DNA of 64,000 bases, from the NCBI GenBank assembly GCA_964647995.1, contig CAZYNP010000028.1, positions 1,151-65,150 of the forward strand. The letters run 5' to 3'. This document shows positions 10,341 to 60,043 of the stretch, one piece after another. A program made the translations under genes and the position numbers. Within the stretch, counting starts at the first letter, position 1, and each line of letters opens with the position of its first letter. Origin of the DNA: an uncultured Cytophagia bacterium (GTDB taxonomy: Bacteria; Zhuqueibacterota; Zhuqueibacteria; Thermofontimicrobiales; Thermofontimicrobiaceae). The notes beneath the pieces were generated by a model that saw only the letters and a program-made list of their open reading frames with translations, had not been told where the DNA came from and did not search any database.

Positions 10341-10455
10341 GACTAACCTCTCCAGTTGATAATATGAATCTTAAATTAGGTTAATTATTGTCTATTTCGC
10401 CCAGAAACCAGAGGTGATTGCCAGGACAGATATTGGACATAGCTCGATCGGCACG

Positions 10456-10959
10456 CTAAACCATCGGCCAGAACCGATTGTCATACCATACGCTCTCTTG
10501 CAGCGCCTTATCCAATTCACTTAAAAATTGCAAATGGGTCTTTTCCCAATTGGCCAGCCAATCGAAAAGCTCTTTTTCCAGACCATCGCCGGTGGCCTGG
10601 CCGCGTTGCGAATAGAATCTGACCGCATTCTCCTCCATGCCCATAGCCGCAGCAATGGCCGCAGCCTCGTAGCTCGCAGCGGTAATCTGTTCGCGTATTT
10701 TTTGGGTCAACACCGCGTTGCTAATTCCGGGAGAAGATTGCTCATAACTGATTTCCGATAATTTGCCAGCTCGTACCAGGCTGGCATAGTGCCGCGAGAG
10801 GATGTCGATATGCTTTTCTTCCTCTGCGGCCATGGTCTCGAAGACCTCTCTAACAGCTTCGCTGGCAGTATTGCGGGCTGTTGCTTCGTAGAAGGCTTTG
10901 CCCCTGCGTTCCAGCAAAATCGCGCCTTTGATGATGTCCAATGCTTGCTCGTTTTTCAT
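10456..10959 (-). CDS. Rubrerythrin-family ferritin-like protein (erythrin-type, no rubredoxin domain).
   Basis: Ferritin-like helices with paired ExxH-type motifs (AAEEEKHIDIL; MEENAVRFY) and a size of 167 aa. Confidence 0.55.
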   Translation of the reverse strand: MKNEQALDIIKGAILLERRGKAFYEATARNTASEAVREVFETMAAEEEKHIDILSRHYASLVRAGKLSEISYEQSSPGISNAVLTQKIREQITAASYEAAAIAAAMGMEENAVRFYSQRGQATGDGLEKELFDWLANWEKTHLQFLSELDKALQESVWYDNRFWPMV

Positions 10960-10984
10960 GCCTTGCTCCTTCTATTTTTCAGGA

Positions 10985-11404
10985 TCAGTTAGCGTTCTCT
11001 GCTTTCATGAGGCATTCGCTACAAATACCTTTGAAATATCCATGAATGCTCTCAATCCGATGTCCCTCCACGCACATCTCTTCCTGGTAGACACAGGTGA
11101 CATCCAGATCGATGATTTTGCCGCATTGGCGACAAAAAAAATGATGATGCGGTTGCAGGATGTATTCATAGCGGATTTCGGACTCGGTTATGGTCAACAC
11201 ATCAACCAGGTGGTATTTCCGAAAAATATCCAGAGTGTTGTACACCGTGGTTTTTGATAGCGTGGGGACCTTTTTGTAAAGCGCAGCATAGATCATATCC
11301 ACGGTGGGATGGGAATGATTCTTGTCCAGATATTCCAGGATTTTCAAGCGCTGAAAGGTTGGCTTGATGCCGCGGTCGACCAGGATCTGTTTGTATTTTT
11401 CCAT
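10985..11404 (-). CDS. perR: Fur-family transcriptional regulator, likely the peroxide-responsive PerR.
   Basis: Fur-family features are present: the DNA-binding helix PTFQRLKILEYL, the HHHFFCRQCGKIIDL metal site and a C-terminal CxxC. It is adjacent to the rubrerythrin/peroxidase genes. Confidence 0.7.
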   Translation of the reverse strand: MEKYKQILVDRGIKPTFQRLKILEYLDKNHSHPTVDMIYAALYKKVPTLSKTTVYNTLDIFRKYHLVDVLTITESEIRYEYILQPHHHFFCRQCGKIIDLDVTCVYQEEMCVEGHRIESIHGYFKGICSECLMKAENAN

Positions 11405-20537: not shown

Positions 20538-21995
20538 ATGCGATCAAAATGTCTACTGGCAGTTTTATTGATGAGCTTATTATTCATCAATTCAGTTTTC
20601 TCCCAGACCTGGGATCAGGCCACAGGTATCGGATTCACTGGCAATGGCATCAAATTTCTTGGCGGCGCAGTAGATCGAGCCGCATTGGGACTTGGCGGCG
20701 GGCTATCACTCAAATATGGCGCTTCACCTTATGTCATGTTCGATCTGAATGCCAATTATGGCAGTTTCAAGCCAACGGTTGACGGCTCGTGGTACAAGAA
20801 AGATGCCAGTGCACCTTTCCGTACCTTCCTTCTGCCGGTGTCGTTGGATATTCGCTTTACACCGGTTTCCGATGGTCGTGTGAAGCCCTACTTTACCTTT
20901 GGCGGTGGGCTGTTGCTCTGGGATTTGCGCAACGTGGCCGGCACCGACAAGAGCTTTTTTGGCGATTATGAACTGCGCTGGGGCGATAGTGTTCATAAGG
21001 GAACTCAGCGTGAATTTGTATTCAAAGGTGGCCTGGGCCTGGAACTCTTTTTCACCCATGCGGTGTCGCTGGATCTGCAGGCGGGAATGCAGTCGTTACT
21101 CAACAACGATCCCAAAGACAATGTTGGCTACGGCGATGCCAACAATTACGCCGCCACCGGCCGGGTTGGACTCAACTTCTACCTGGACTATTACAAGGAC
21201 ACCGATAAAGATGGGATCGAGGATAAAAAGGATGCCGATCCCTTGCGCCCAGAAGATGTCGACGGTTTCAAGGACGATGATGGCGCACCCGATGACGACA
21301 ACGACAATGACGGCGTGCCTGATCTAAGCGACAAAGCGCCCAATCTGGCCGAAGACAAAGATGGCTTCCAGGACGATGATGGCGTGCCCGATCCCGATAA
21401 CGACGGCGATGGCATTCTGGATGTTAACGATAAGGCGCCTAATGAAGCCGAAGACATGGATGGCTTCAAGGATGGTGATGGAATGCCCGATCCCGACAAC
21501 GACGGCGATGAGATCCTGGATGTCAACGATAAGTGCCCTGGAACGGATGCGACCGTTGCTAACGGCGAGAATACCAAAGAAACTTTCAATGGCTATCAGG
21601 ATGACGATGGTTGCCCTGATACCAAGCCAGTACCAGTTCAGTTAGAAAAGACAGGCGCAAAACTGGTACTCAAAGGAGTGAATTTTGAAACCGGCAGCGC
21701 AACGCTAACCAAGGAATCCTATGCGATTCTGGATGAAGTAATTGCTGGTTTGCGCGATAACAAAGATGTCAGCATTGAGATCCGTGGTTATACCGACAGT
21801 CAGGGGGCTGCGGCAGCCAATCAGAAATTATCGGAACGTCGCGCCAATACGGTGCTGCAATATCTGGTTACCAATGGCATCGAGCCCACCCGCTTGAAAG
21901 CGGTAGGCCTGGGCGAGAAGGATCCGATTGCATCCAATAACACACCCGAGGGACGCGCGCAAAATCGACGCATCGAGTTTGTGCGCACTAAGTAA
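20538..21995 (+). CDS. OmpA-family outer-membrane protein with an N-terminal beta-barrel, thrombospondin type-3 (TSP3) calcium-binding repeats and a C-terminal OmpA peptidoglycan-binding domain.
   Basis: It has a signal peptide and a good ribosome-binding site (AAGGAG). The Asp-rich D.D.DG..D..D repeats occur five to six times. The C-terminus IEIRGYTDSQG...LSERRANTV...NRRIEF is the OmpA signature. Confidence 0.8.
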   Translation: MRSKCLLAVLLMSLLFINSVFSQTWDQATGIGFTGNGIKFLGGAVDRAALGLGGGLSLKYGASPYVMFDLNANYGSFKPTVDGSWYKKDASAPFRTFLLPVSLDIRFTPVSDGRVKPYFTFGGGLLLWDLRNVAGTDKSFFGDYELRWGDSVHKGTQREFVFKGGLGLELFFTHAVSLDLQAGMQSLLNNDPKDNVGYGDANNYAATGRVGLNFYLDYYKDTDKDGIEDKKDADPLRPEDVDGFKDDDGAPDDDNDNDGVPDLSDKAPNLAEDKDGFQDDDGVPDPDNDGDGILDVNDKAPNEAEDMDGFKDGDGMPDPDNDGDEILDVNDKCPGTDATVANGENTKETFNGYQDDDGCPDTKPVPVQLEKTGAKLVLKGVNFETGSATLTKESYAILDEVIAGLRDNKDVSIEIRGYTDSQGAAAANQKLSERRANTVLQYLVTNGIEPTRLKAVGLGEKDPIASNNTPEGRAQNRRIEFVRTK

Positions 21996-47875: not shown

Positions 47876-48577
47876 TCACCACCGCAAGCCAATGGCGATT
47901 GTCAAAAACTCCATGAATGGACCTGACAACTGGCAGACCCCGGCAAATCGCTCCATAAAATTGATTTCGCAGGCCTGTTGTTCATTGAACTGGCAGAAGA
48001 GATACAGGTCTTTCAACTTTAGAACCTCGATCAGCGGATGGTGCGGATCATACCCTCTGGGCGCGGTCTTGAATTTTTCCCCCTCCAGCGTGAAAGTAGC
48101 GGCAAATTTCTCATCGCCAAAAATCTGCTGCCAGCGATCGGGATGGGCGACGATAGCATCCCGAATTCTTCCCAGCGTTTCGGCATCGGGCTGCCAGACC
48201 CCAATGGCAGTGAACACGTTGTCGGGTTCCAGATGCAGATAAAAGCCCGGGGCATGGGCATCCCTGGCGCTTTCATGTCGGAACTGAATTCCCGCATGGG
48301 TTTTATAAGGACTTTTATCCGGCGAAAAGCGAACGTCCCGATAAATCCGAAACAGCGAGCCACCCATCTTGCGAGCATCAGCCTCGAAATGCGGGCTGAT
48401 TTTTGCCAGATAAGGGGCAAAATCGGCTATAAATCTGAGCAGTGGCTCTCGCACCACTGCCTCGTAGCGATCCTTGTTTTCCTCGAACCAGGCTCGGTCG
48501 TTATTCAGCTTCAACTCTCTCAAAAAATCAAACAGCGCAGGGGTAATGTAAGGTGAAAAATTTTGATGATCGTTCAT
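47876..48577 (-). CDS. DUF2461 (TIGR02453) family protein.
   Basis: The N-terminal FDFLRELKLNNDRAWFEENKDRY motif and the R(I)YRDVRFSPDKSPYK motif are characteristic of this family. Confidence 0.6.
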   Translation of the reverse strand: MNDHQNFSPYITPALFDFLRELKLNNDRAWFEENKDRYEAVVREPLLRFIADFAPYLAKISPHFEADARKMGGSLFRIYRDVRFSPDKSPYKTHAGIQFRHESARDAHAPGFYLHLEPDNVFTAIGVWQPDAETLGRIRDAIVAHPDRWQQIFGDEKFAATFTLEGEKFKTAPRGYDPHHPLIEVLKLKDLYLFCQFNEQQACEINFMERFAGVCQLSGPFMEFLTIAIGLRW

Positions 48578-48747
48578 GGTCTCGTTTCCTTTGGATATTT
48601 TAATTCCATTCAAAATTTCCAATATCCAAAAATCAAAACTCAAATAAATTTCAATCCTCAATGCTCAAAATTCCAAAAAGTGTGCTTTATTGAAATTTTG
48701 GGATTGAATATTATTTGTTGTTTGTTTTTTGTGGTTTGAAATTTCAG

Positions 48748-49713
48748 CTAAAAGCGTTTTGTATAACCATGACAATACGGATGATGCCCCGTCTTCTGAT
48801 AGTAGGATTGGTGGTACCGCTCCGCCTCCCAGAACGTATCCGCCTTCGTTAATTGCGTAGCCACTTTGTAACCTTTGTCCTTCAAAATTTGGATTAGCTT
48901 CTCCGCAATCTGCTTTTGCTCCTCATTCACATAAAAAATCTCGGAGCGATATTGCTGGCCAATATCAGGCCCCTGGCGATTGACCTGAGTGGGATCGTGA
49001 ATTTCAAAAAACAGTCGAGCTAAAGTTTCAAAATCGGTCTGGGACGGATCGAACACGACCTCCATGGTCTCGGCATGGCCTGTATTGCCTTCGCAGACAT
49101 CGTCGTAGGTGGGATTTTTCAGATGTCCACCCATATAGCCCACTCGGGTGGAGAGCACGCCTTTTTCTTTTTGAAAGAAATATTCCACGCCCCAAAAACA
49201 GCCGCCGGCAAAATAGGCTTTTTCAGTTTTCACTTCTGCTTTTGTTTTTTCATCAGCAGGAATGAAATTCATCGAGATCGAATTCACGCAATGTCGGGTA
49301 TTCTTGGCGGTAAATCCTTCTCCCAAAAATACATGCCCGAGGTGACCGCCGCAGTTGGCGCAGACGATTTCGGTGCGAATGCCATCGGCATCGGGAATTC
49401 GCTTTACCGCTCCAGGGATTTCATCATCGAAGCTGGGCCAGCCACAGCCCGAATCGAATTTGTCTTCGGAGCGATACAGCGGCGCCCCACATTGCTTGCA
49501 CGTGTAAGTCCCCTTTTCTTTGTGATTGTAATACTTGCCCGTAAACGGCCTCTCCGTCCCTTTGTGAAGAATCACCCGTTGTTCCTCTGGAGTCAATTGA
49601 TTGTACTTCATACCACTATCCTGCTTTGTTTTATCCTGTGAAATTAAACTGATCGCAGCTATTGATACGACCAAAATCATCATAGAAATGATAATTGTTT
49701 TCATTTTAATCAC
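48748..49713 (-). CDS. msrAB: Bifunctional peptide-methionine sulfoxide reductase (MsrB-MsrA fusion) with a signal peptide.
   Basis: The MsrB zinc site is CKQCGAPLY...CANCGGHLGHVF and its catalytic region is GCGWPSF. The MsrA motif is GGCFWG. Confidence 0.8.
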   Translation of the reverse strand: MIKMKTIIISMMILVVSIAAISLISQDKTKQDSGMKYNQLTPEEQRVILHKGTERPFTGKYYNHKEKGTYTCKQCGAPLYRSEDKFDSGCGWPSFDDEIPGAVKRIPDADGIRTEIVCANCGGHLGHVFLGEGFTAKNTRHCVNSISMNFIPADEKTKAEVKTEKAYFAGGCFWGVEYFFQKEKGVLSTRVGYMGGHLKNPTYDDVCEGNTGHAETMEVVFDPSQTDFETLARLFFEIHDPTQVNRQGPDIGQQYRSEIFYVNEEQKQIAEKLIQILKDKGYKVATQLTKADTFWEAERYHQSYYQKTGHHPYCHGYTKRF

Positions 49714-49998
49714 CTGCCATTAATAACCTTTCAAAGGTTTAAAGCCTTCGACAGGGTTAGTTCAATATTTAATTGCATTGTCGAAAGAAATTCTCCAACG
49801 GATTGAAACAAGCCAACTGATTAGATAACTATTTATAAATCCGTTGGGTTGTTTCTATCCGTTAGTAAAAAGCTTGGCTTGCTTTCAGGATCTCAAAAAA
49901 ACTCCTTATGCAATTTCCATTATCCCAATCCCTTTTTTGCCATTTTTCACATCCTCAAACTATTTCTATCTGCCGTTTCACGATTCACCTAATCCACA

Positions 49999-50850
49999 TC
50001 ACGATTTTATAAACGTCCCATTCCGATATTCCTGGAACGCCACCATCAATTCCTCATCCGTATTCATCACAATCGGCCCGCGCCAGGCGATGGGCTCGTT
50101 CAATGGCTTGCCCGAAACCCATAGAAACCGAACAGGATCCGCCTGGGTCTGAATCTTGACCCTATCCCCCTGGGTGAAAACAATTAGATGATCGGCCTGA
50201 ACGGAGTCAGCGCTATCGGGATCGAAATAACCGCTGCCCTGAAACACAAAAGCAAACGTCTTGTAATCGGGTTTGGTAGCGATTTCTAATTCCGCATGTG
50301 GAGCGATGGCGACATCAAAATATTCGGTATCCACCACCAAATCCTGAACAGGGCCGTTCGTGCCATTCATTTGTCCTGCAATTATTTTAATCTTCACATT
50401 GGGATTGGGCGAAAACTCGGGGATGGTCTCGCTCCTGACATCCCGATACCTGGGTGCCATCATTTTATGCGACTTCGGCAGATTGACCCAGAGCTGAAAT
50501 CCCCGCATCTCTCCCTCAAATCGTTTTGGCATTTCCTGATGAATGATGCCGCTGCCCGCTGTCATCCATTGCACATCGCCCGAGTAGATCACCCCCCTGT
50601 TGCCCAGGCTATCGCCATGTTCCACCTCGCCCGCCAGCATGTAGGTCACCGTCTCGATCCCCCGATGCGGATGCCAGGGAAAGCCAGCGAGATAGTCCTC
50701 GGGATCATCCGATCCGAAATGATCGAGCAAAAGAAACGGATCGAGCAACGGCTTTTCATAATAGCCGAACACCCGCTTCAATTTCACCCCTGCTCCTTCG
50801 AGGGTCGGCTTGCTTTTTAGAATCTGATTAATTTTTCGGAATCCATTCAT
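49999..50850 (-). CDS. Pirin family cupin protein.
   Basis: It has the HPHRGIETVTYMLAG...H motif. Confidence 0.75.
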   Translation of the reverse strand: MNGFRKINQILKSKPTLEGAGVKLKRVFGYYEKPLLDPFLLLDHFGSDDPEDYLAGFPWHPHRGIETVTYMLAGEVEHGDSLGNRGVIYSGDVQWMTAGSGIIHQEMPKRFEGEMRGFQLWVNLPKSHKMMAPRYRDVRSETIPEFSPNPNVKIKIIAGQMNGTNGPVQDLVVDTEYFDVAIAPHAELEIATKPDYKTFAFVFQGSGYFDPDSADSVQADHLIVFTQGDRVKIQTQADPVRFLWVSGKPLNEPIAWRGPIVMNTDEELMVAFQEYRNGTFIKS

Positions 50851-50933
50851 GGTCTATTTCCTTTGACATTTTTAATTTCAGTTTAGGCGTCACCTGATCG
50901 AAAGAGTCGTAGCCGATAACAAGATGAAAACGG

Positions 50934-51488
50934 TTATTTAAACACCACTCTGGCCGTCGCATCTTCTTTGTAAAAAATCTCATGTCCATCCACCCATTGG
51001 CCGTTCTGAAGATATTGTGATTTACTATGCATTCTGCCATCGGGCAGCAACTCCCCAATGGCCTTCACTTCGGTGATGCCATTCGGATTGCCCGTCACCA
51101 GTTCGTGGCTGATCAATTTTTCCCCATCCACGGTAAATGTGCCGGTCGTGTAGAATCCTGCTGTGGTAAAATAAAAAAACAACAGTTGCTGTTTGTCCCT
51201 GTCCCAATAAATAATGGTCTCGCCACCATAGCTTCCATCATTGACCGAATGCATTATCCTGATGGCCTGACCATTCAGAATCAGTTCCCAGCGAGAGACA
51301 TCTACCATCGGTTTTTCGGCGGTGGCGTTGGCAAATTCACCCCGCCAGGTCTTGCCCACGAACGGCAGAAAAGGCTTCAGATGCTCATTGACCACAGGTT
51401 GATCGCTGGCAGGCTGGGCTTGTTGACCGTAAGCCGAAGCCGATATGAGCATTCCCAGCATCAGACTAACAAAAAAATGCTTATTCAT
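50934..51488 (-). CDS. Secreted hypothetical protein (184 aa).
   Basis: It has a signal peptide (MNKHFFVSLMLGMLISASAYG) and is beta-rich. I recognise no motifs. Confidence 0.45.
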   Translation of the reverse strand: MNKHFFVSLMLGMLISASAYGQQAQPASDQPVVNEHLKPFLPFVGKTWRGEFANATAEKPMVDVSRWELILNGQAIRIMHSVNDGSYGGETIIYWDRDKQQLLFFYFTTAGFYTTGTFTVDGEKLISHELVTGNPNGITEVKAIGELLPDGRMHSKSQYLQNGQWVDGHEIFYKEDATARVVFK

Positions 51489-52007
51489 CCATTCCTCCCT
51501 CAGTTAATATTGCTTAACGCCACCTGGCATAAGTTAAACGATCCAGGTTCGCACTTGCTCCCACCGAACTGAACTCCCATCGAAAAATTTTGTTTTAAAG
51601 TCCCCATACCTTGCCAGGTATTTCATCACAACTCAATTTCTCACCCACATATTTTCACCAGGTGCCATGCCATATCCCCCAAACTCCTTGCGCTATCACT
51701 TCCGCTTGCCTCGCTCGAAGTCGGAGTTTTGGAGCAATGGAGTGCTGCGGATTTCTAACTGTCATTCATTACTCCATCACTCCAATGCTTCATCACTACA
51801 TCATTTCAAAACCATGCATCTAAATTTTCAAATCAAAATGACAGGGTCGACTCCAGATAGCAACAGGCAGCCGACCCTGTCTGTGCGGAGGGTAGTTCTT
51901 CTATTTGCAACTCGATTTCGAGCCAGCACTATCCGAGTAAATCAGCTTTGCCCGCTCATTTCAGGAATTATGCCAATTGCTCCAATTTCTCGATTGGCCA
52001 ATTAGCG

Positions 52008-52138
52008 AAATTCGTTTCGTTAGTGCAATTAGCGGTCTCATCGAGTCTACCACCGATGTCACCACTAACCCGAGTCACACACTCCGCCTCATCAGAAAAT
52101 TAGCGGAATTCGTTTAATTGGCGTCATTAGCGGTCCAC
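52008..52138. repeat. Two copies (A1 at 52008-52049, A2 at 52096-52138) of an AATTAGCG-rich short repeat family; orientation is inverted relative to the B copies at 55184-55470.
   Basis: A1 is ccaattagcgaaattcgtttcgttagtgcaattagcggtctc. A2 is aaaattagcggaattcgtttaattggcgtcattagcggtccac. Both share AATTAGCGRAATTCG and ATTAGCGGTC with the B elements. Confidence 0.7.
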
Positions 52139-52159
52139 TTTGGCCGTCGCTTCCCCTTA

Positions 52160-52768
52160 TCACTTCATCGCCGCATGAAATTTCTCCGCCACGGCCTTCC
52201 AATTGACCACATTCCACCAGGCCTCGATGTAATCGGGACGTCGGTTCTGGTATTTCAAATAGTAGGCGTGTTCCCAGACATCGATGCCCAGGATCGGCGT
52301 CATCCCCTCGCTGATCGGGCTATCCTGATTGGCCGTGCTGCTCACCATCAAGCGACCAGCTTTGACGCTCAGCCAGGCCCAGCCGCTGCCAAAGCGGGTG
52401 GCTGCGGCATTGGAAAATTTTTCTCTAAACGCCTTAAAATCGCCAAACTCTTTTTTGATCGCCGCTGCTAGATCGCCTGTCGGTTCACCGCCTGCGTTTT
52501 TCGCCATAATTTCCCAGAATAATATATGGTTCACATGGCCGCCGCCGTTGTTCCGAACCGCCGTGCGTATGGCCTCGGGCACAGCGTTCAAATCTGCCAA
52601 TAATTTTTCCACGCTATCAGCTTGAAAATTGGCCGATTCCAGCGCTTTATTCAAATTGGTGGTATAAGCCACATGATGCTTGTCATGATGAATCTCCATG
52701 GTGCGCGCATCGATATAGGGTTCTAAGGCATCATAAGCATAATGTAAATTCGGTGTCTTGAAATTCAT
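52160..52768 (-). CDS. sod: Fe/Mn superoxide dismutase.
   Basis: [25 protein letters not shown], the metal-ligand motifs and the C-terminal DVWEHAYY are present. Confidence 0.85.
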
Positions 52769-53007
52769 AATTTGCTCCTTCTATGTTTTGATTCATGTTT
52801 TCATCTTAAAAATTTTTTCCAACGGATTGATGAAGCCAACGGATAATTTTATTAATATCATTTTCTCAGATTTAGCATCAACATCCACATCCAATTAGCC
52901 GATCCACCTGTCATCGTCCCCCTTTTGGAGGATGCCAGTGGGATGTTATTCATCTTGAAACAGGGGAATTAACATCTATGAGTGCAATTTAACTCAATAT
53001 CATTGAA

Positions 53008-53032
53008 ATACCAGACCAAATTGGTCTTATTT
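53008..53032. promoter_or_regulatory. Operator-like palindrome ATACCAGACCAAATTGGTCTTATTT (core AGACCAA-A-TTGGTCT) in the sod upstream region; a near-copy lies at 55911..55935.
   Basis: It is a 15-bp perfect inverted repeat, and 21 of 25 positions match the site directly upstream of the Rrf2 regulator gene. Confidence 0.45.
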
Positions 53033-53064
53033 GTGTAGAAAAAAATTTCTCAATCACGATTAAA

Positions 53065-53159
53065 AACGATTACTAAACCTGAAAAGTTTAGTAATCGTTG
53101 TCCCCTGTTATTTGGAGGTACAATTACCAAACTTGAAAAGTTTGGTAATTGTACCTCCC
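53065..53159. other. Two adjacent perfect hairpins (14-bp and 19-bp stems) with near-identical 7-nt loops (cTGAAAA / tTGAAAA), lying 3' of the RNA ligase gene.
   Basis: The first is aacgattactaaac ctgaaaa gtttagtaatcgtt. The second is ggaggtacaattaccaaac ttgaaaa gtttggtaattgtacctcc. On the minus strand the first is followed by a T-rich run, so it may act as a terminator. Confidence 0.6.
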
Positions 53160-53208
53160 CACTTGTTTCTCCCCAATTACCCAGTTACCCAATTACCTAA
53201 TCACCCAA

Positions 53209-54219
53209 CTACTCTTCATATTTCAACAAAAACTCAGGATTCACGACCTTGAAGCTCAGCCTTCCCAATTCAGGATCTTGCGCCTCGACAACGGGTCGGA
53301 TGACAATGCCTTCCCTGGGAATATCGGGATTGAGCACGCTTTTGTCATTGGACAGCGCCACCAGACCATCCACATCGTGCGTACCCAGGATGTAATCGTC
53401 GCGAATAATGGGCACGGTCTCGAATCCTGCCTCTCTGGCCAGGGCCACAAATTCCTCATAATTCAAATAGACAAAGCGATCGATGTCGAAGATGCTATAG
53501 ATCAGCACCTGGTGGCCAGGCAGTTTATATTTATTGCCCTGAATTTTCGGTCCCAGTATCTCCCCCTGAAAGGCGATGTTGCGATGGAGCTTTCGCAGTT
53601 TGCCCTCGATGTCGTGCAAGCGAGCGACCATCCAGTGGATATTGGTCTCGGTCTCCAGCAACTCCAGATTGCGAGAGCAAACGCCAAACTCACTATCCCG
53701 AATGTAATAGGTGGCGCTGGTGCCATCCACCTTTTCGGTAATATAGCAACGCTGGCCCACGTTTTCAGGTCGGGTGAGCACATCGGGCACGGATTGGATG
53801 CGCATCTCGTCGGTTTTGGGGATGAACCCAGGGAAACTGCCTTTTACCTGGCCGCTGGTCATCACGGCTGGCGGCGGCTCATATTTTTTAATTCCCAGCA
53901 GCTCGGTGACATCCATTCCCTCGCTGATCGGAACGTTTTCCAGCTCTTTGATCTGATGAATAGGAAAAGCAATGCCCTGCGAAATCTGTCCCCGCAGCTT
54001 CACGGTCTTGATCCTGAACTTCCGTGGCCGCAAAAATTCATATTCGGGCTTTTCGGGCAACATGCTGTCGATCTCACAATAGACGCAATAGTCACCCACT
54101 TTGAAATCTCCCTTCTTGACCACCAGTTGCCAGCCCAGCACGGTGGCCTTTTCAATCTTGTCCGCCTCGGGAATTGGCTCCAGACTTTTGATCCGCTGGA
54201 TCGTAGCTAATTTTCTCAT
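53209..54219 (-). CDS. ATP-dependent RNA ligase of the Rnl5 family (DraRnl/NgrRnl-type; TIGR02306-like).
   Basis: It has the N-terminal OB-like domain MRKLATIQRI...ADKIEKATVLGWQLVVKKGDFKVGDYCVYCEIDS and the nucleotidyltransferase motif I ITEKVDGTS with Lys at about residue 163. At 336 aa both the size and the lysine position match DraRnl (342 aa, Lys165) as I recall it. Confidence 0.7.
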   Translation of the reverse strand: MRKLATIQRIKSLEPIPEADKIEKATVLGWQLVVKKGDFKVGDYCVYCEIDSMLPEKPEYEFLRPRKFRIKTVKLRGQISQGIAFPIHQIKELENVPISEGMDVTELLGIKKYEPPPAVMTSGQVKGSFPGFIPKTDEMRIQSVPDVLTRPENVGQRCYITEKVDGTSATYYIRDSEFGVCSRNLELLETETNIHWMVARLHDIEGKLRKLHRNIAFQGEILGPKIQGNKYKLPGHQVLIYSIFDIDRFVYLNYEEFVALAREAGFETVPIIRDDYILGTHDVDGLVALSNDKSVLNPDIPREGIVIRPVVEAQDPELGRLSFKVVNPEFLLKYEE

Positions 54220-54254
54220 TTTTAGACTCCTTTTTCGTCTTGAGTGCCTTTTTT

Positions 54255-54598
54255 AAATATTTTCTCTCCCAGAAACGATATCCCACCGAAATGAATTTTT
54301 AGAATTTTTATTATCAGGGAAGCGGCTTCCTATTACCCTCTATTACCGAATTGCCCAATTATTTTAAAATATTTTTTCCCACAGAAATGAAATCCCACCG
54401 AAATGGATTTTTAGAATTTTTATTATCAGGGAAGTGGCTTCCTATTACCCTATTACCGAATTGCCCAATTATCTTAAAGTATTTTTTCCCACAGAAATTA
54501 AATCCCACCGAAATGAATTTTTAGAATTTTTATTATCAGGGAACGGGCTTCCTATTAACTTATTACCCTATTACCCAATTACCTAATTGCCCAATCCC
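54255..54598. repeat. Tandem array of three units of about 114 bp, each containing TTTTCCCACAGAAATGAAATCCCACCGAAATG, TTTTTAGAATTTTTATTATCAGGGAAGYGGCTTCC and CCTATTACCGAATTGCCCAATTA.
   Basis: The units are at 54255-54370, 54371-54480 and 54481-54598 and are more than 90% identical. The array lies between the trx-like stop (54599) and the RNA ligase start (54219). Confidence 0.8.
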
Positions 54599-55228
54599 CT
54601 AACGACCCGATTTCCACTTGATATTACACCCAATACTTGGTTTTTGATCCTGGCTCACGGGCTTGCCAGCGATGATGGCCTCCAGCGCCGCCCGAAGGTC
54701 TTCGCCCGTTACAGGAATATCATTACTGGGCCGAGAGTCATCCATCTGGCCCCGATAGACCAATTTCAAATCTTTATCGAAAACATAAAAATCAGGCGTA
54801 CAGGCGGCCAGATAGGCACGGGCGACCTCCTGGGATTCGTCGTAAAGATAAGGGAACGGATAACCGAACTGCTTCGCCACTTTTTTCATCTCTGCTGGAG
54901 AATCTTCGGGGTAGCCCTGCACATCGTTGGAGCTAATGGCAATGAATGAAATTCCTTTCGACAGGTAATCCTTTGCCAATTGCACCAACCCTGTTCGAAC
55001 GTGCTTAACAAACGGGCAATGATTGCAAATAAACATCACTACTGTCGCCGTATCCGATTTTAGCTCTTGCAACGATAGTACTTTTCCAGAAATGGTATCG
55101 GGCAATTTGAAATCAGGCGCCGATGTTCCCAACGGCATCATGTTCGATGGCGTGACTGCCATTTGTTCCTCCGCTTTATTTGTGACCGCTAATTTCGCGA
55201 ACGAGACGAATTTCGCTAATTGGCGCAA
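54599..55228 (-). CDS. Thioredoxin-fold protein (AhpC/TSA-redoxin/TlpA-like) with a CxxC motif (CNHCPF).
   Basis: APDFKL...VVMFICNHCPFV is a redoxin-type motif. The start may be the internal Met (MAVTPSNMMPLG). Confidence 0.6.
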   Translation of the reverse strand: MRQLAKFVSFAKLAVTNKAEEQMAVTPSNMMPLGTSAPDFKLPDTISGKVLSLQELKSDTATVVMFICNHCPFVKHVRTGLVQLAKDYLSKGISFIAISSNDVQGYPEDSPAEMKKVAKQFGYPFPYLYDESQEVARAYLAACTPDFYVFDKDLKLVYRGQMDDSRPSNDIPVTGEDLRAALEAIIAGKPVSQDQKPSIGCNIKWKSGR

Positions 55229-55470
55229 TTAGATTAATTCGCGAAATTAGCGGTCAACTGTATTCGTCCAAAGCAATTGCTGTCGACAGAGCAAAAGATT
55301 TCTGACCGCTAATTTCGCTAATTGATAAGAATTTCGCCAATTGATGATTGGCCTGCATTTCGATTCGTAAATCTATGAAGCCATGCATTTTTGTTTGTAC
55401 CCCAATCACTTCAAACTCAAAAATTAATAATTCGCGCAATTAGATTAATTCGCGAAATTAGCGGTCAACC
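55184..55470. repeat. MITE-like palindromic elements with 18-bp terminal inverted repeats GACCGCTAATTTCGCGAA / TTCGCGAAATTAGCGGTC. B1 (55184-55258) is a 75-bp complete element. B2 (55304-55351) and B3 (55429-55470) may be the two ends of a 167-bp element.
   Basis: The terminal inverted repeats are perfect. The right half of B1 and B3 are identical over 37 nt. The family is shared with the A copies at 52008-52138. Confidence 0.7.
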
Positions 55471-55476
55471 CAGAAT

Positions 55477-55902
55477 TCAATAGCTTGTGGAAAATTTCTT
55501 CTCAAAATCTTTGAGCGTAATTTCATCCAATAAATTGACCAATTTCGATTGAATGTCCTCCATGGATTTTCGGATCAGGCAATTGCGCTCCCGCTCGCAG
55601 ACCGTTTCCTCGTCAGCATCCAGGCAATCGGCGATAGCAATTGGGCCGTCAATAGCCGTGATCACCGAGGAAATATTGATGCGATCGATGGGCTGGGCTA
55701 AGTAATAGCCCCCTTTTACACCTTGCACAGAGATCACCATTCCACTTTTCACCAGGCTCTGCAGAATTTTTCCCATCAGCTCCAGCGAAATGTTATATTT
55801 ATCCGATAGCTCCCGTGCAGTTGTCAACTCATCAGGCGATTTCTTTGCCATGTGCAGGAGGGCGATCAAAGCGTATTCCACTTTTTTGCTGAATTTCATC
55901 AT
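55477..55902 (-). CDS. Rrf2-family transcriptional regulator (IscR/NsrR-like) with three candidate Fe-S ligand cysteines.
   Basis: The N-terminal HTH is KKVEYALIALLHMAK...LTTARELS and a GG(Y)YLA-like region is present. Cysteines lie in ...ADCLDADEETVCERERNCLI. Confidence 0.7.
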   Translation of the reverse strand: MMKFSKKVEYALIALLHMAKKSPDELTTARELSDKYNISLELMGKILQSLVKSGMVISVQGVKGGYYLAQPIDRINISSVITAIDGPIAIADCLDADEETVCERERNCLIRKSMEDIQSKLVNLLDEITLKDFEKKFSTSY

Positions 55903-55910
55903 CAGAAGTT

Positions 55911-55935
55911 ATACCAGACTGAATTGGTCTTACTT
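55911..55935. promoter_or_regulatory. Operator-like motif ATACCAGACTGAATTGGTCTTACTT, 9-33 bp upstream of the Rrf2 start codon; paired with 53008..53032.
   Basis: It is similar to the sod-upstream palindrome, and its position is consistent with an autoregulatory operator. Confidence 0.4.
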
Positions 55936-55952
55936 TAGCTCAAAATAAAAAT

Positions 55953-56200
55953 CATTTTTTTCCAATGATTTCACCCACTGAAACGCCTGGCGAAAAAATT
56001 TGTTCCAAAATAGGACTATGGAGGTCGGATTTAAAATTGGAATTCTATTTTTAAATTTCGTTAGCGAAAAGGAATGATTTTTCTCCCACAGAAATGGAAT
56101 CCCACAGAAAAGAAAACTTAGGTTTTATTGATAGATGCTCTGTTTTCTGATTTTAAAAAAAGACTTTCTCTCCCACCGAAATGGAATCCCACAAAAATAG
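55953..56200. repeat. Three dispersed copies of the TTTYTCCCACMGAAATGGAATCCCAC motif (also present in the 54255-54598 array) in the Rrf2/sigma divergent intergenic region.
   Basis: Copies lie at 55953-55985, 56075-56110 and 56163-56200. Confidence 0.6.
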
Positions 56201-56388
56201 AGTTTGATCCTTAATTCTGGGCGCTTTTATTTTGCCAAATGGTGGATCGCCTCCTGGCGGTTTTGAAGGCTAAAAACATGTTCATTGAGCCAGGAATGAA
56301 TTATCTCGATCTTGATGTAAGGCCCTCTTTTTTATTTCAAAGAAAAAAAATATCAAATAATTTTCATTTGAATTTGTTATATTAGTGT

Positions 56389-56979
56389 ATGGAGCTGGAG
56401 AACATGAAGGCGACGGAAGCTTTGGTCGAACGCTATCGCCAGGGCGATCATGCTGCTTTTGACCAGTTAATACAAGAGCATGGCAGGCCGCTATACAATT
56501 TCATACTTTCTATGACCAAAAGCAAGTCGCTGGCCGACGATGTCTATCAAGAAACCTGGAGTCGGGTCCTTCACCACCTCGATGACTATCGAGAGCAGGG
56601 GCAATTTAAATGCTGGCTGTTCCAGATCGCCAACCATCAATGCCTGAATCACCTGCGATTGCTCAGACGAGTCTTTGTGCCATTGACCGAGATAGTCAAT
56701 GTCGAGAGCGAAGCGAACCTAATCATCAGCGGTTCCAATCCTGATCCCGGGCCTGATGAAAAATTGGAGCGCAACGAACGCCTCAAATGGGTTTGTGCGT
56801 GCGCTCAACAATTGCCCATCAAGCAGCGTCAGGTTTTTCTCTTGAAAATGAACAGCGATCTGACATTCAAAGAGATTTCAATGATTTTGAACCGACCGTT
56901 GAATACTGTGCTCACGCAGATGCGAACGGCACTTTTGACCATGAGGAAAAAACTAAAGGCCATTTATGATGAAGTGTAA
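56389..56979 (+). CDS. ECF-type RNA polymerase sigma-70 family factor.
   Basis: Region 2 (DVYQETWSRV...FKCWLFQIANHQCLNHLR) and a region 4 HTH (FKEISMILNRPLNTV) are present. Confidence 0.75.
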   Translation: MELENMKATEALVERYRQGDHAAFDQLIQEHGRPLYNFILSMTKSKSLADDVYQETWSRVLHHLDDYREQGQFKCWLFQIANHQCLNHLRLLRRVFVPLTEIVNVESEANLIISGSNPDPGPDEKLERNERLKWVCACAQQLPIKQRQVFLLKMNSDLTFKEISMILNRPLNTVLTQMRTALLTMRKKLKAIYDEV

Positions 56980-57409
56980 ATTTGACAGGTCAAAATTAAT
57001 TTTATACCTATTCAATGAAGTTACCTCAGCCGAAAGAGAGGAAATTTCCGCTCACATCGAATCCTGCGAGGTGTGCGCCTTAGAACTTGAACAGCTAAGT
57101 TCCGTTCGGAGTCGCTGGCCCAACCAGCCCATCGCCGATCCGCCCTCTCTTCATATTGTCAAAACGCCAGCGCGGCAGAAACTGGTTCGCCAGCCTCGCC
57201 GAGCCAGGAGAGTTCGGCGGCTGATACCTGCTCTGGGCTTTGCCATTGTGCTGGCTATCATTGCATTTTCACTGATCTGGCGGTTGGCGATCAATAAGCG
57301 ATCCAATTATTGGAGCATCGAAAATAGCTGGGAAGGACCCTATCGGTATCAGTTCGAAAGAATAGATCGTACCATTGAGATGATCAAGAATGATGAATTT
57401 TTTAACTAA
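56966..57409 (+). CDS. Anti-sigma factor (zf-HC2 type) with one TM helix.
   Basis: It has the HxxxCxxC motif AHIESCEVCALEL and a TM segment (LIPALGFAIVLAIIAFSLIW). Its start overlaps the end of the sigma gene. Confidence 0.6.
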   Translation: MMKCKFDRSKLILYLFNEVTSAEREEISAHIESCEVCALELEQLSSVRSRWPNQPIADPPSLHIVKTPARQKLVRQPRRARRVRRLIPALGFAIVLAIIAFSLIWRLAINKRSNYWSIENSWEGPYRYQFERIDRTIEMIKNDEFFN

Positions 57410-59910: not shown

Positions 59911-60043
59911 ACCTTGATTTTTGACCATCCCCGCTCCCATTTTACCTTGATTTTTGACCATAACTGCTCTCATTTTACCTTTCTTTTTAACCATAATTAT
60001 ACAAAAATATCCTTGATTTTTAGCCATAATCTTTGTATTATTT
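59911..60043. repeat. Four tandem copies of a roughly 33-bp unit (ACCTTGATTTTTGACCATNNCNGCTCNCATTTT), degenerating towards 3', upstream of the DUF4143 ATPase gene.
   Basis: The units are at 59911-59943, 59944-59976, 59977-60010 and 60011-60043. The first two are about 85% identical. Confidence 0.7.

What the first reader, a model, noticed from the sequence alone, without database searches (positions are those of the whole stretch)
53209..54219. Rnl5-family RNA ligase (KxDG at about K163) embedded in a redox-defence context
The 336-aa product has the distinctive N-terminal OB-like domain (MRKLATIQRI...GDYCVYCEIDS) and a nucleotidyltransferase motif I (EKVDGTS). Its size and lysine position match DraRnl as I recall it. 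These ligases seal 3'-OH/5'-PO4 nicks where the 3'-OH strand is RNA. Their physiological role is unresolved, so the tight linkage here to sod, trx-like and Rrf2 genes is an informative context.
Basis: partly seen in the sequence, partly recalled or inferred. Interest (0 to 1): 0.6.

Follow-up and report, generated by a model that had tools for sequence, protein, structure and literature searches.

The report
Rnl5 RNA ligase in redox operon

Summary
Window 53209-54219 (minus strand) encodes a 336-aa protein with the quoted N-terminal sequence and motif I K163-V-D-G. It is a true Rnl5 ligase. It scores above the TIGR02306 equivalog cutoff, has the PF21189 OB plus PF09414 NTase domain order, and is 45% identical over its full length to the crystallised Naegleria NgrRnl. 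Every NgrRnl active-site residue is kept, and the predicted fold matches at TM 0.80.

The redox context is real but lineage-specific. In relatives at 77-86% identity (KSB1-like), Rrf2 -> Prx-like -> Rnl is kept in seven distinct arrangements with 11-163 bp gaps. None of about 90 usable loci at <=72% identity has these neighbours.

A 25-bp palindrome (GACT-N5-AGTC core) occurs only three times in the 64-kb window: twice upstream of Rrf2, beside a conserved ECF-type promoter, and once after the ligase gene ahead of SOD. This supports, but does not prove, co-regulation with oxidative-stress genes.

Caveats: in this genome the gaps are 317-440 bp and full of repeats, and the nearest relative lacks the ligase gene entirely. 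The result is a new member of a known family, with a modestly informative regulatory context.

The parts
53209..54219 (-). [quoted passage not shown]
   Evidence: ORF and translation. TIGR02306 equivalog scores 194.8 bits against a cutoff of 151.15. NgrRnl 5cot matches at E 1.3e-65 over the full length. The AF2 model matches 5cou at TM 0.80.
53959..54210 (-). N-terminal OB domain (residues 4-87), the signature module of Rnl5
   Evidence: PF21189 matches at E 2.2e-37 and covers the whole profile. The residues that contact the ATP gamma-phosphate and second metal in NgrRnl are kept: R2 = Arg4, D51 = Asp53, and K112 = Lys121, which lies just beyond this domain.
53242..53748 (-). Nucleotidyltransferase (adenylyltransferase) domain, residues 158-326
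   Evidence: PF09414 matches at E 2.2e-25 over profile positions 3-171 of 171. Motifs III (E220), IV (E303) and V (K324), plus R140 and R183, align to NgrRnl E227, E312, K326, R149 and R190.
53722..53733 (-). Motif I K163-V-D165-G166; K163 is the predicted AMP-accepting lysine
   Evidence: Aligns to NgrRnl K170-L-D172-G173 and DraRnl K165-x-H167-G168. K and G are invariant in 14 aligned sequences.
54227..54232 (-). AAGGAG ribosome-binding site, 7 nt upstream of the rnl ATG
   Evidence: Read directly from the sequence.
54253..54581 (.). Three tandem copies of a 110-bp repeat filling the Prx-rnl intergenic gap (379 bp here, 50-163 bp in relatives)
   Evidence: TRF reports period 110, 3.0 copies, 90% matches. 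Family D2. Gap sizes.
53168..53216 (.). GGTAATTG-type octamer array immediately after the rnl stop codon; a second array lies at 54554-54610 immediately after the Prx stop codon
   Evidence: TRF reports period 8. The pattern gives 11 matches in the window, all in these two gaps, against 1.2 expected. Family D1.
53065..53158 (-). Two related stem-loops downstream of rnl (53114-53158 with a 21-bp stem; 53065-53099 with a 14-16-bp stem followed by a T-rich tail), a likely transcript end
   Evidence: I5, I11, D9; dG -33.5 and -17.2. The same palindrome, AACGATTACCAAACTT...AAGTTTGGTAATCGTT, follows rnl in L007, L012 and L014.
53008..53032 (.). Operator-like palindrome 3 (AAATAAGACCAATTTGGTCTGGTAT on the gene strand), located after rnl and 240 bp upstream of the SOD start
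   Evidence: PWM score 25.9. This site was not in the training set. It is one of only three hits >=13 in 64 kb, against a shuffle maximum of 15.4. Equivalent sites occur in L007, L101, L012, L014, L173 and L174.
52160..52768 (-). Fe/Mn superoxide dismutase gene, the next transcription unit
   Evidence: PF00081 plus PF02777.
54599..55159 (-). Prx-like / thioredoxin-fold protein with a C-N-H-C motif (186 aa counted from the conserved ATG; the ORF list extends it to a TTG at 55228)
   Evidence: PF00578 and PF08534. Homologs are 185-188 aa. The best PDB match is 2ywi, 'hypothetical conserved protein', at E 3.7e-88.
55477..55902 (-). Rrf2-family transcription regulator with three invariant cysteines (C93, C102, C108), first gene of the string
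   Evidence: PF02082. TIGR00738 scores 120.7 against a cutoff of 73.3, while IscR, NsrR and the other specific models score below their cutoffs. Cysteine conservation in 9 orthologs.
55911..55935 (.). Operator-like palindrome 2, 8 bp upstream of the Rrf2 ATG
   Evidence: Conserved block in the alignment of 7 loci. PWM score 24.3.
56008..56032 (.). Operator-like palindrome 1, about 105 bp upstream of the Rrf2 ATG, abutting the -35-like GGAAC
   Evidence: PWM score 22.8.
55983..56006 (-). ECF-sigma-type promoter-like motif GGAAC-N16-CGT, 80 bp upstream of the Rrf2 ATG
   Evidence: The only match in the 64-kb window. It holds the same position (76-80 bp upstream) in L007, L008, L010, L012 and L096. 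The stricter form gives 0 matches in 100 shuffles.
56389..57409 (+). Divergent ECF sigma factor (56389-56979) and zf-HC2 (HxxxCxxC) anti-sigma factor (56966-57409), candidate drivers of the ECF-type promoter
   Evidence: PF04542, PF08281 and PF13490. The pair is also adjacent in L007, L012, L174 and L178, but not in L008, L010, L095 or L096.
47876..51488 (-). Downstream co-directional genes: a 184-aa secreted protein with no Pfam match (50934-51488), pirin (49999-50850), MsrB-MsrA fusion (48748-49713) and DUF2461/TIGR02453 (47876-48661)
   Evidence: These genes are syntenic in L001, L007, L008, L096, L101 and L173.

Best explanation
The gene encodes a functional Rnl5-family ATP-dependent polynucleotide ligase of the NgrRnl type.

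Inferred mechanism, from the solved NgrRnl structures and DraRnl biochemistry:
1. K163 attacks the alpha-phosphate of ATP, assisted by two Mn2+ ions. D165, E220 and E303 hold the catalytic metal. K324, R140, R2 and K112 orient the triphosphate. The N-terminal OB domain is needed for this step.
2. AMP is passed to the 5'-phosphate at a nick.
3. The 3'-OH of an RNA-ended strand attacks and seals the nick.

In this KSB1-like lineage the gene is the third cistron of an Rrf2 / Prx-like / rnl string. The string is read from an ECF-sigma-type promoter and is guarded by two operators for the cysteine-bearing (probably Fe-S) Rrf2 repressor. The same operator guards the next unit, which starts with superoxide dismutase. 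The ligase is therefore most likely induced together with antioxidant enzymes. Its probable job is to seal ribonucleotide-ended nicks left in DNA or duplex RNA after oxidative damage and gap filling.

Shown here: family membership, intact catalytic residues, fold, lineage-wide gene order, and the position and specificity of the motifs. Inferred: enzymatic activity, co-transcription, repressor binding, the inducing signal and the physiological substrate.
For: Identity of the protein:
- TIGR02306 equivalog scores above its cutoff.
- PF21189 plus PF09414 occur in the family's domain order.
- 44.7% identity to NgrRnl over 320 aligned residues, with R4, D53, K121, T145, D146, R149, K170, D172, G173, R190, E227, E312 and K326 all conserved and F248 replaced by Y.
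- Residues essential in DraRnl and shared across the family are kept: Q31, R79, T163, K165, G168, E230, E305 and K326 (PMC1807946).
- The AF2 model (pLDDT 80) matches NgrRnl structures at E 1e-33 and TM 0.80, while other ligases match only the NTase domain at TM <=0.5.

Operon evidence:
- Rrf2-Prx-Rnl stays co-directional with 11-154 bp and 50-163 bp gaps in seven distinct arrangements (L007, L008, L010, L012, L095, L096, L097), although the flanks differ on both sides.
- There are no strong hairpins in the Prx-rnl gaps, but a conserved hairpin follows rnl.

Regulon evidence:
- The 25-bp palindrome occurs only 3 times in 64 kb, all in this cluster, scoring 22.8-25.9 against a shuffle maximum of 15.4.
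- It recurs at the same three positions in relatives.
- In L096 SOD follows rnl after only 52 bp with no third site, so SOD has joined the operon there.
- GGAAC-N16-CGT is unique in the window and positionally conserved.
- Three cysteines are invariant in the regulator.
- The operator core GACT-N5-AGTC equals that of the published IscR type-1 motif.

Physiology:
- Deleting DraRnl sensitises D. radiodurans to ionising radiation, which is an oxidative insult. The rnl operon there is induced by radiation, and ligase activity is required (PMC5397189).
Against: - In this very genome the gaps are large: 317 bp (Rrf2-Prx), 379 bp (Prx-rnl) and 440 bp (rnl-SOD). They are filled with repeats, so co-transcription may be broken here.
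- No operator or ECF-type motif lies directly upstream of rnl.
- The nearest relative, L173 (SOD DNA 94% identical), keeps all three operators but has no rnl. L175 has Rrf2-Prx without rnl, and L011 has rnl without them.
- Among distant loci, 0 of 93 (upstream side) and 0 of 88 (downstream side) have Prx or SOD neighbours, and no neighbour recurs family-wide.
- In other lineages the gene sits in quite different contexts, for example tRNA-array/Ro60 islands.
- No expression or biochemical data exist for this protein. The lineage is uncultured.
Confidence: 0.6

Rival explanations
1. The protein is a genuine Rnl5 ligase, but its place among redox genes is only inherited gene order in one young lineage. 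It has its own promoter, and there is no regulatory or functional tie to Rrf2, Prx or SOD.
For: - The linkage is absent in all 143 distant loci.
- rnl is missing from the nearest relative L173 and from L175, and sits elsewhere in L011.
- The gaps in the window are 317-440 bp.
- No operator lies directly upstream of rnl.
- The operators can be fully explained as controlling only Rrf2-Prx and SOD, as they do in L173.
Against: - The trio survives in seven arrangements whose upstream and downstream flanks have been rearranged.
- The Prx-rnl gaps are as short as 50-69 bp and contain no hairpin, while a conserved hairpin follows rnl.
- In L096 SOD follows rnl by 52 bp, so a transcript that reaches SOD from the Rrf2 promoter must pass through rnl.
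Confidence: 0.3
2. The gene is a horizontally acquired, phage-type RNA-repair gene, for example a counter to tRNA- or RNA-cleaving toxins. On this view it landed in a repeat-rich intergenic hotspot and is unrelated to oxidative stress.
For: - The family is common in phages, with 345 phage records including jumbo phages, and it occurs on plasmids.
- Pfam's name for the N domain (PHA02142) is phage-derived.
- The gene is bracketed by the same octamer arrays and shows presence/absence polymorphism.
- Its closest outgroup homologs are in another phylum, Chloroflexota, at 67-70% identity.
- In Bacteroidota it sits in tRNA-array/Ro60/Rnl1-like islands.
Against: - There are no phage or mobile-element genes in the neighbourhood.
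- GC is 0.514 and GC3 is 0.647, only slightly above the neighbours at GC3 0.52-0.60.
- The position is stable across relatives down to 77% identity.
- No clean insertion junction appears when the locus is compared with the rnl-less L173.
Confidence: 0.08
3. The protein is not an RNA ligase but an ATP-dependent DNA ligase or an mRNA-capping-type nucleotidyltransferase.
For: The only support is shared covalent nucleotidyltransferase chemistry. Foldseek lists DNA ligases far down the ranking, at E 1e-4 and TM about 0.3-0.4.
Against: - No Pfam DNA-ligase or capping-enzyme model matches at E <= 1.
- The OB domain is N-terminal rather than C-terminal.
- The TIGR02306 equivalog is passed.
- The NgrRnl match covers the full length at E 1e-65.
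Confidence: 0.01

Closest known systems
NgrRnl, Naegleria gruberi RNA ligase (Rnl5; PDB 5cot, 5cou, 6vt0-6vtg)
   Same: - 44.7% identity over the full length, and the same two-domain order of N-terminal OB plus NTase.
- Every residue that contacts ATP and the two Mn2+ ions is conserved.
- The predicted fold superposes at TM 0.80.
- At the positions where DraRnl differs, such as Asp rather than His in motif I, the window protein sides with NgrRnl.
   Different: - It is bacterial rather than eukaryal.
- The adenine-stacking Phe248 is Tyr241.
- It has shorter loops in the OB domain, including a 9-residue deletion after residue 57.
- There are no biochemical data for this protein.
DraRnl, Deinococcus radiodurans DR_B0094 (founding Rnl5 member)
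   Same: - Same family model (TIGR02306 is named RNA_lig_DRB0094), similar size (342 against 336 aa) and similar lysine position (K165 against K163).
- T163, K165, G168, E230, E305, K326, Q31 and R79 are conserved.
- Both genes lie in stress-linked settings. DraRnl is radiation-induced and radioprotective (PMC5397189), and a Dps gene lies two genes away on MP1.
   Different: - Only 27% identity.
- DraRnl has His in motif I, and its essential K26, S185, K186 and F281 are not conserved here or in NgrRnl.
- DraRnl is the first gene of a two-gene operon with DR_B0095, not the third gene behind an Rrf2 regulator.
T4 Rnl2 and kinetoplastid RNA-editing ligases (Rnl2 family)
   Same: Same in-vitro substrate logic, namely nicks with a 3'-OH RNA strand. 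They share the PF09414 NTase domain and motifs I, III, IV and V (PMC5397189, TM about 0.49 on the NTase domain).
   Different: Rnl2 carries a C-terminal helical domain and lacks the N-terminal OB module. Sequence identity is only 14-17%. The window protein is not a member.
IscR/NsrR/RsrR-type Fe-S Rrf2 regulators and their palindromic operators
   Same: - The adjacent regulator passes the Rrf2 superfamily model and has three invariant cysteines in the cluster-binding region.
- Its presumed operator has the GACT-N5-AGTC core and 25-bp length of the IscR type-1 motif ATASYYGACTRwwwYAGTCRRSTAT.
- It appears to be autoregulated through two sites.
   Different: - It scores below the IscR, SUF-regulator, NsrR, CymR and RirA equivalog cutoffs.
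- The cysteine spacing is C-x8-C-x5-C rather than IscR's C-x5-C-x5-C (the IscR spacing is from my own knowledge).
- The target genes are prx-like, rnl and sod, not isc or suf.
SigR-RsrA-type ECF sigma / zinc anti-sigma thiol-stress regulons (comparison from my own knowledge)
   Same: An ECF sigma and an HxxxCxxC anti-sigma are encoded next door. A GGAAC-N16-CGT promoter precedes an operon of thiol/redox genes, and msrBA lies nearby.
   Different: There is no evidence that this sigma factor reads this promoter. The pair is not adjacent in four of the relatives, and the motif is absent upstream of the sigma gene itself.

Membership tests
Rnl5 (DraRnl/NgrRnl) nick-sealing RNA ligases | Passes the curated family HMM (NCBIfam TIGR02306, equivalog) | tested here: met
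   Scores 194.8 bits against a cutoff of 151.15. Residues 4-333 match profile positions 2-341 of 341.
Rnl5 (DraRnl/NgrRnl) nick-sealing RNA ligases | Signature domain order: N-terminal OB module followed by a C-terminal adenylyltransferase domain, with no further domain | tested here: met
   PF21189 covers residues 4-87 and PF09414 covers 158-326. The predicted structure matches full-length NgrRnl at TM 0.80.
Rnl5 (DraRnl/NgrRnl) nick-sealing RNA ligases | Motif I lysine nucleophile in KxDG(S/T) | tested here: met
   K163-V-D-G-T aligns with NgrRnl K170-L-D-G-S and DraRnl K165. K and G are invariant in the homolog alignment.
Rnl5 (DraRnl/NgrRnl) nick-sealing RNA ligases | Catalytic-metal carboxylates and phosphate-binding residues of motifs I, III, IV and V, plus Arg149 (essential in NgrRnl: E227, E312, K326) | tested here: met
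   D165, E220, E303, K324 and R140 are all aligned and identical. Residue roles are taken from PMC7261155.
Rnl5 (DraRnl/NgrRnl) nick-sealing RNA ligases | OB-domain residues that orient the ATP gamma-phosphate and second metal (NgrRnl R4, D53, K121; DraRnl Q31, R79) | tested here: met
   R2, D51, K112, Q31 and R69 are conserved. DraRnl K26 is Thr here and His in NgrRnl, so it does not define the family.
Rnl5 (DraRnl/NgrRnl) nick-sealing RNA ligases | Activity: Mn2+-dependent self-adenylylation and sealing of 3'-OH(RNA)/5'-PO4 nicks | not testable with these tools
   Needs recombinant protein. This feature is inferred only from the conservation of all the catalytic residues.
ATP-dependent DNA ligases / mRNA capping enzymes | Match to the DNA-ligase or capping NTase models, with a C-terminal OB domain | tested here: not met
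   No such Pfam family matches at E <= 1. The OB domain is N-terminal. DNA ligases appear only at E about 1e-4 and TM 0.3-0.4 in Foldseek.
Rnl2 (T4 Rnl2 / REL1) | NTase domain plus a C-terminal all-helical domain, with no N-terminal OB | tested here: not met
   Only the NTase domain aligns (TM 0.48-0.49, 14-17% identity). The protein ends 10 residues after motif V.
IscR (Fe-S cluster assembly regulator), for the neighbouring Rrf2 gene | Passes the IscR equivalog model | tested here: not met
   TIGR02010 scores 90.2 against 207.55, and NF008110 scores 63.7 against 275. Only the Rrf2 superfamily model is passed, at 120.7 against 73.3.
Fe-S-binding Rrf2 regulators (general), for the neighbouring Rrf2 gene | Three conserved cysteine ligands in the region after the dimerisation helix | tested here: inconclusive
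   C93, C102 and C108 are invariant in 9 orthologs. The spacing differs from IscR and NsrR, and cluster binding cannot be tested here.
Operon / regulon membership of rnl with Rrf2, Prx-like and SOD | Conserved co-directional order with short gaps, and a shared operator | tested here: inconclusive
   - Met in relatives, where gaps are 11-163 bp across seven arrangements and the operator flanks the unit.
- Not met for gap size in this window, where gaps are 317-440 bp.
- rnl is absent in L173 and L175.
- There are no transcript data.

The most novel reading that the evidence does not exclude
In this KSB1-like lineage, a nick-sealing RNA ligase is a regulated member of an oxidative-stress regulon. 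The regulon would be driven by an ECF-type promoter and gated by a cysteine/Fe-S Rrf2 repressor whose operator also controls superoxide dismutase. This would be the first regulatory link, rather than only a knockout-phenotype link, between Rnl5 ligases and reactive-oxygen damage. It would imply that sealing ribonucleotide-ended nicks is a routine arm of oxidative-damage defence, including in sediment bacteria.
Probability: 0.4. Interest if true: 0.55.

Novelty: new member of a known kind. Interest (0 to 1): 0.4.

Why it matters
The function of Rnl5 ligases in cells is known from a single organism: deleting DraRnl makes D. radiodurans radiation-sensitive. An independent lineage has placed the gene behind a redox-sensing regulator, beside a thiol-redox protein, and upstream of an SOD that carries the same operator. 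That gives a second, orthogonal hint that these enzymes deal with the consequences of oxidative damage.

It also yields concrete, cheap tests: binding of Rrf2 to a defined 25-bp site, and co-transcription across a 50-70 bp gap.

The broad survey tempers this. The association is not a family-wide rule, and in other phyla Rnl5 is recruited into quite different modules, such as tRNA-array/Ro60 islands. The protein itself is a routine, already auto-annotated family member.

Tried and rejected
1. Rfam and tRNA scans of the window found nothing, so no RNA gene accounts for the long gaps.
2. The sigma-70 promoter and terminator scan of 51400-56500 gave no more sites than shuffled sequence. The large hairpin it flagged on the plus strand is better read as a palindrome downstream of rnl.
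3. Family-wide clustering of 1,019 neighbour ORFs within 4 kb of rnl in 160 loci found no neighbour shared between lineages. The largest clusters all come from the KSB1-like clade.
4. I looked for a clean insertion/deletion junction by aligning the rnl-less L173 against the window. Only the genes and the operator align, there is no rnl remnant, and the octamer arrays are not at a recognisable junction. The direct-repeat excision idea is therefore unsupported.
5. I searched for the ECF-like motif or the operator directly upstream of rnl, SOD's start, pirin, msrBA or the sigma gene. None was found beyond the three sites.
6. The DraRnl-specific essential residues K26, S185, K186 and F281 are not conserved here. 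I rejected this as evidence against membership because NgrRnl lacks them too and the local alignment is unreliable.
7. Composition gave no clear sign of recent transfer.
8. A literature search for an Rrf2/RNA-ligase/SOD operon found no paper.
9. The taxonomic label rests only on one MAG titled candidate division KSB1 at 86% identity (L014) and on unnamed 'bacterium' MAGs. I did not verify it with marker genes.
Full report
**Observation.** The ORF is real. Window 53209-54219 on the minus strand encodes 336 residues starting MRKLATIQRI. GDYCVYCEIDS lies at residues 42-52 and EKVDGTS at 162-168. An AAGGAG ribosome-binding site lies 7 nt upstream of the ATG. The longer plus-strand ORF that overlaps it is only its antisense shadow.

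**Identity.**
- Pfam finds PF21189 (PHA02142 OB-fold; residues 4-87; E 2e-37) followed by PF09414 (RNA_ligase; residues 158-326; E 2e-25). Nothing from the DNA-ligase or capping families appears at E <= 1.
- NCBIfam's equivalog model TIGR02306 (RNA_lig_DRB0094) scores 194.8 bits against a curated cutoff of 151.15, end to end.
- Against solved structures, the only strong hits are the Naegleria gruberi Rnl5 ligase NgrRnl and its mutants, at E 1.3e-65 over the full length.

From that alignment the protein is 44.7% identical to NgrRnl. It keeps every residue that the NgrRnl-ATP-(Mn2+)2 structure and mutagenesis identify (PMC7261155). The window residues R2, D51, K112, T136, D137, R140, K163, D165, G166, R183, E220, E303 and K324 correspond to NgrRnl Arg4, Asp53, Lys121, Thr145, Asp146, Arg149, Lys170, Asp172, Gly173, Arg190, Glu227, Glu312 and Lys326. 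The adenine-stacking Phe248 is conservatively replaced by Tyr241.

I fetched DraRnl from the D. radiodurans megaplasmid MP1. Identity to it is only 27%. The family-wide essential positions are conserved: T163, K165, G168, E230, E305, K326, Q31 and R79. DraRnl's His167, K26, S185, K186 and F281 are not conserved, but they also differ in NgrRnl (PMC1807946). An AlphaFold model built on a 12-sequence alignment (mean pLDDT 80.3) matches NgrRnl structures at Foldseek E 1e-33 and TM 0.80. T4 Rnl1, T4 Rnl2, archaeal Rnl3 and the DNA ligases match only the NTase domain, at TM <= 0.5. Membership in Rnl5 is therefore established as far as sequence can establish it; activity is inferred.

**How common the family is.** More than 7,400 database proteins match at E <= 1e-10, and JGI already labels the identical protein 'RNA ligase (TIGR02306 family)'. 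Homologs occur in 345 phage records and 39 plasmids. The protein as such is therefore ordinary.

**Context in the window.** Eight genes run co-directionally on the minus strand: Rrf2 (55477-55902), a Prx-like thioredoxin-fold protein with a CNHC motif (54599-55159), rnl, Fe/Mn SOD (52160-52768), a 184-aa secreted protein, pirin, an MsrB-MsrA fusion and DUF2461. An ECF sigma / zf-HC2 anti-sigma pair is transcribed divergently upstream.

The linkage is not tight here. With the Prx start corrected to the conserved ATG, the gaps are 317, 379 and 440 bp. The Prx-rnl gap is filled by three 110-bp tandem repeats. GGTAATTG-type octamer arrays follow both the Prx and the rnl stop codons and occur nowhere else in the window. 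Two related long hairpins follow rnl.

**Is the context conserved?** I collected 171 loci around homologs from genomes and metagenomes, plus contigs carrying close relatives. I then searched them with the window's neighbour proteins.

The answer is sharply bimodal. Relatives at 77-87% identity keep the neighbourhood; the one with a taxon name is a candidate division KSB1 MAG. Everything at <= 72% identity does not: this covers Chloroflexota, Bacteroidota, Omnitrophota, Asgard archaea and others, 143 unique loci in all. Of these, 93 have >= 1.5 kb upstream and 88 have >= 1.5 kb downstream. None has a Prx-like or SOD gene, and only one has a remote Rrf2 hit, 4.4 kb away. Unsupervised clustering of all neighbour ORFs found no family-wide partner.

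Within the lineage, the conserved core is Rrf2-Prx-Rnl. It is retained in seven distinct arrangements with gaps of 11-154 and 50-163 bp, while both flanks vary. SOD is replaced by the 184-aa protein in L010. Convergent genes follow rnl in L095. The upstream genes differ in L008. In L096, SOD follows rnl by only 52 bp.

**Regulatory signals.** Aligning the Rrf2-upstream regions of seven loci revealed two conserved 25-bp palindromes with consensus AAATAGGACT-N5-AGTCCTATTT, about 105 and 8 bp before the ATG. A GGAAC-N16-CGT motif abuts the first.

A matrix built only from those sites finds three hits >= 13 bits in the whole 64-kb window. Two are the training sites. The third, at 53008-53032, scores 25.9 and lies between the rnl hairpins and SOD. 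Forty Markov shuffles peaked at 15.4. The equivalent third site occurs after rnl in L007, L174, L101, L012 and L014, where it sits about 65 bp ahead of an extra secreted-protein gene placed before SOD, and also in L173.

The palindrome's core and spacing (GACT-N5-AGTC, 25 bp) are those of the published IscR type-1 motif. The regulator has three invariant cysteines but does not reach the IscR, NsrR, SUF-regulator, CymR or RirA cutoffs.

GGAAC-N16-CGT occurs once in the window and at the same offset in five relatives. From general knowledge, this is the shape of ECF-sigma promoters.

No strong hairpin lies in the Prx-rnl gaps of relatives. A conserved 16-bp-stem palindrome follows rnl in four loci.

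The simplest reading is two units under one Rrf2 repressor: [ECF-type promoter + 2 operators] Rrf2-Prx-rnl | hairpin | [operator] SOD...

**Counter-evidence.** The nearest relative by DNA, L173 (SOD 94%, Rrf2 region 91% identical), has Rrf2-Prx-[operator]-SOD-184aa-pirin-MsrBA-DUF2461 with no rnl and no remnant of it. L175 has Rrf2-Prx alone. L011 has rnl (76% identity) in an unrelated setting. Outside the lineage, the highly conserved Prx-like protein occurs without Rrf2 or rnl. So rnl is a dispensable passenger of an Rrf2-Prx module, and the operators would exist without it. In the window itself, the repeat-expanded gaps leave co-transcription open.

**Link to known physiology.** DraRnl is the first gene of a radiation-induced two-gene operon. 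Its deletion sensitises D. radiodurans to >= 9 kGy and delays genome reassembly, and a K165M mutant does not complement. The authors propose sealing of ribonucleotide-ended nicks after gap filling, without excluding RNA repair (PMC5397189). The KSB1 arrangement fits that picture and adds a regulatory angle. No paper describing an Rrf2/RNA-ligase/SOD operon was found.

**Verdict.** The redox context is real, lineage-specific and probably regulatory, but it is less tight in this genome than stated and is not general for the family. I rate it a new member of a known kind, with interest 0.4.

Noticed in passing
L029 3300-15100; L025 4200-12200; L086 1900-10990; L085 5500-14000 (rnl at about 10001-10990 in each): In four Bacteroidota genomes (a Sphingobacteriales MAG, Xanthocytophaga flavus, Raineya and Ferruginibacter), the Rnl5 homolog lies in an island that looks like an RNA-repair or tRNA-backup module. 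The island holds arrays of about 10-20 tRNA genes, a TROVE/Ro60-like protein (PF05731, E 1e-33), a second T4 Rnl1-type ligase (PF09511), a metallo-beta-lactamase-fold protein and a RimK-like ATP-grasp protein. This differs completely from the redox context of the window.
   Followed up: partly
window 54253-54581, 56079-56126 and 56166-56213: The 110-bp repeat (three tandem copies) between Prx and rnl contains a 48-nt module (...ATTTCGGTGGGATTTCATTTCTGTGGGAAAAAA). Two further copies, 73-79% identical, lie just upstream of the Rrf2 promoter/operator region. A similar TTTCTGTGGGAGA also precedes Rrf2 in L008. The motif TTCTGTGGGARAAAA gives 6 matches in the window against 0.4 expected. Its function is unknown; it could be an upstream activator site or a spreading intergenic repeat.
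   Followed up: partly
window 53168-53216 and 54554-54610: Arrays of an 8-nt unit (GGTAATTG / GGTAATAG on the gene strand) start directly after the stop codons of both rnl and the Prx-like gene. They occur nowhere else in 64 kb: 11 matches, all in the Prx-rnl gap (54343-54591, so some sit inside the 110-bp repeat units) or just after the rnl stop (53169-53205), against 1.2 expected. They bracket the rnl segment like direct repeats, but comparison with the rnl-less relative L173 gave no clean junction.
   Followed up: partly
window 55178-55469: The Rrf2-Prx gap is 317 bp here against 11-154 bp in relatives. It is also built from local direct and inverted repeats, namely 39-42-nt units of the form TGACCGCTAATTTCGCGAA.../...TTCGCGAAATTAGCGGTCA. 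All three intergenic spaces of this operon are therefore repeat-expanded in this genome only.
   Followed up: no
L002-L006 (1.1-1.2 kb contigs): Five independent assemblies of related samples (the SRR100953xx series) yield contigs that hold just this gene. Each starts exactly 90 bp upstream and ends 3-109 bp downstream of it. This fits flanking repeats that are multi-copy or variable enough to break short-read assembly.
   Followed up: no
L173 4229-10564: The nearest relative (SOD DNA 94% identical) carries the whole Rrf2-Prx-SOD-184aa-pirin-MsrBA-DUF2461 string with all three operators but lacks rnl. The ligase gene therefore shows presence/absence polymorphism among close relatives.
   Followed up: yes
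L172 (D. radiodurans MP1, 111492-118127): DraRnl's own neighbourhood includes a Dps-family (oxidative-stress DNA-protection) gene two genes upstream, as well as the RadS sensor kinase. This is a loose echo of a stress context around the founding family member.
   Followed up: no
L012 5009-6189; L014 986-2212: In two lineage members, a roughly 400-aa secreted protein with no Pfam match is inserted between rnl and SOD, directly behind the third operator. It would then be a further member of the presumed Rrf2 regulon.
   Followed up: partly
phage records H31/H32 (LR756501, LR756503; 735 kb): The best phage homolog (52% identity, full length) is in a 735-kb uncultured megaphage. Of the 345 phage records with a homolog, 219 are Pseudomonas phages.
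   Followed up: no
window 21267-21533 and 59911-59996: Two other tandem repeats lie in the window. One is a 99-bp unit (2.7 copies) inside the 485-aa ORF at 20538-21995, encoding Asp-rich (DxDxDG-like) repeats. The other is a 33-bp unit (2.6 copies) just after the gene that ends at 59902.
   Followed up: no
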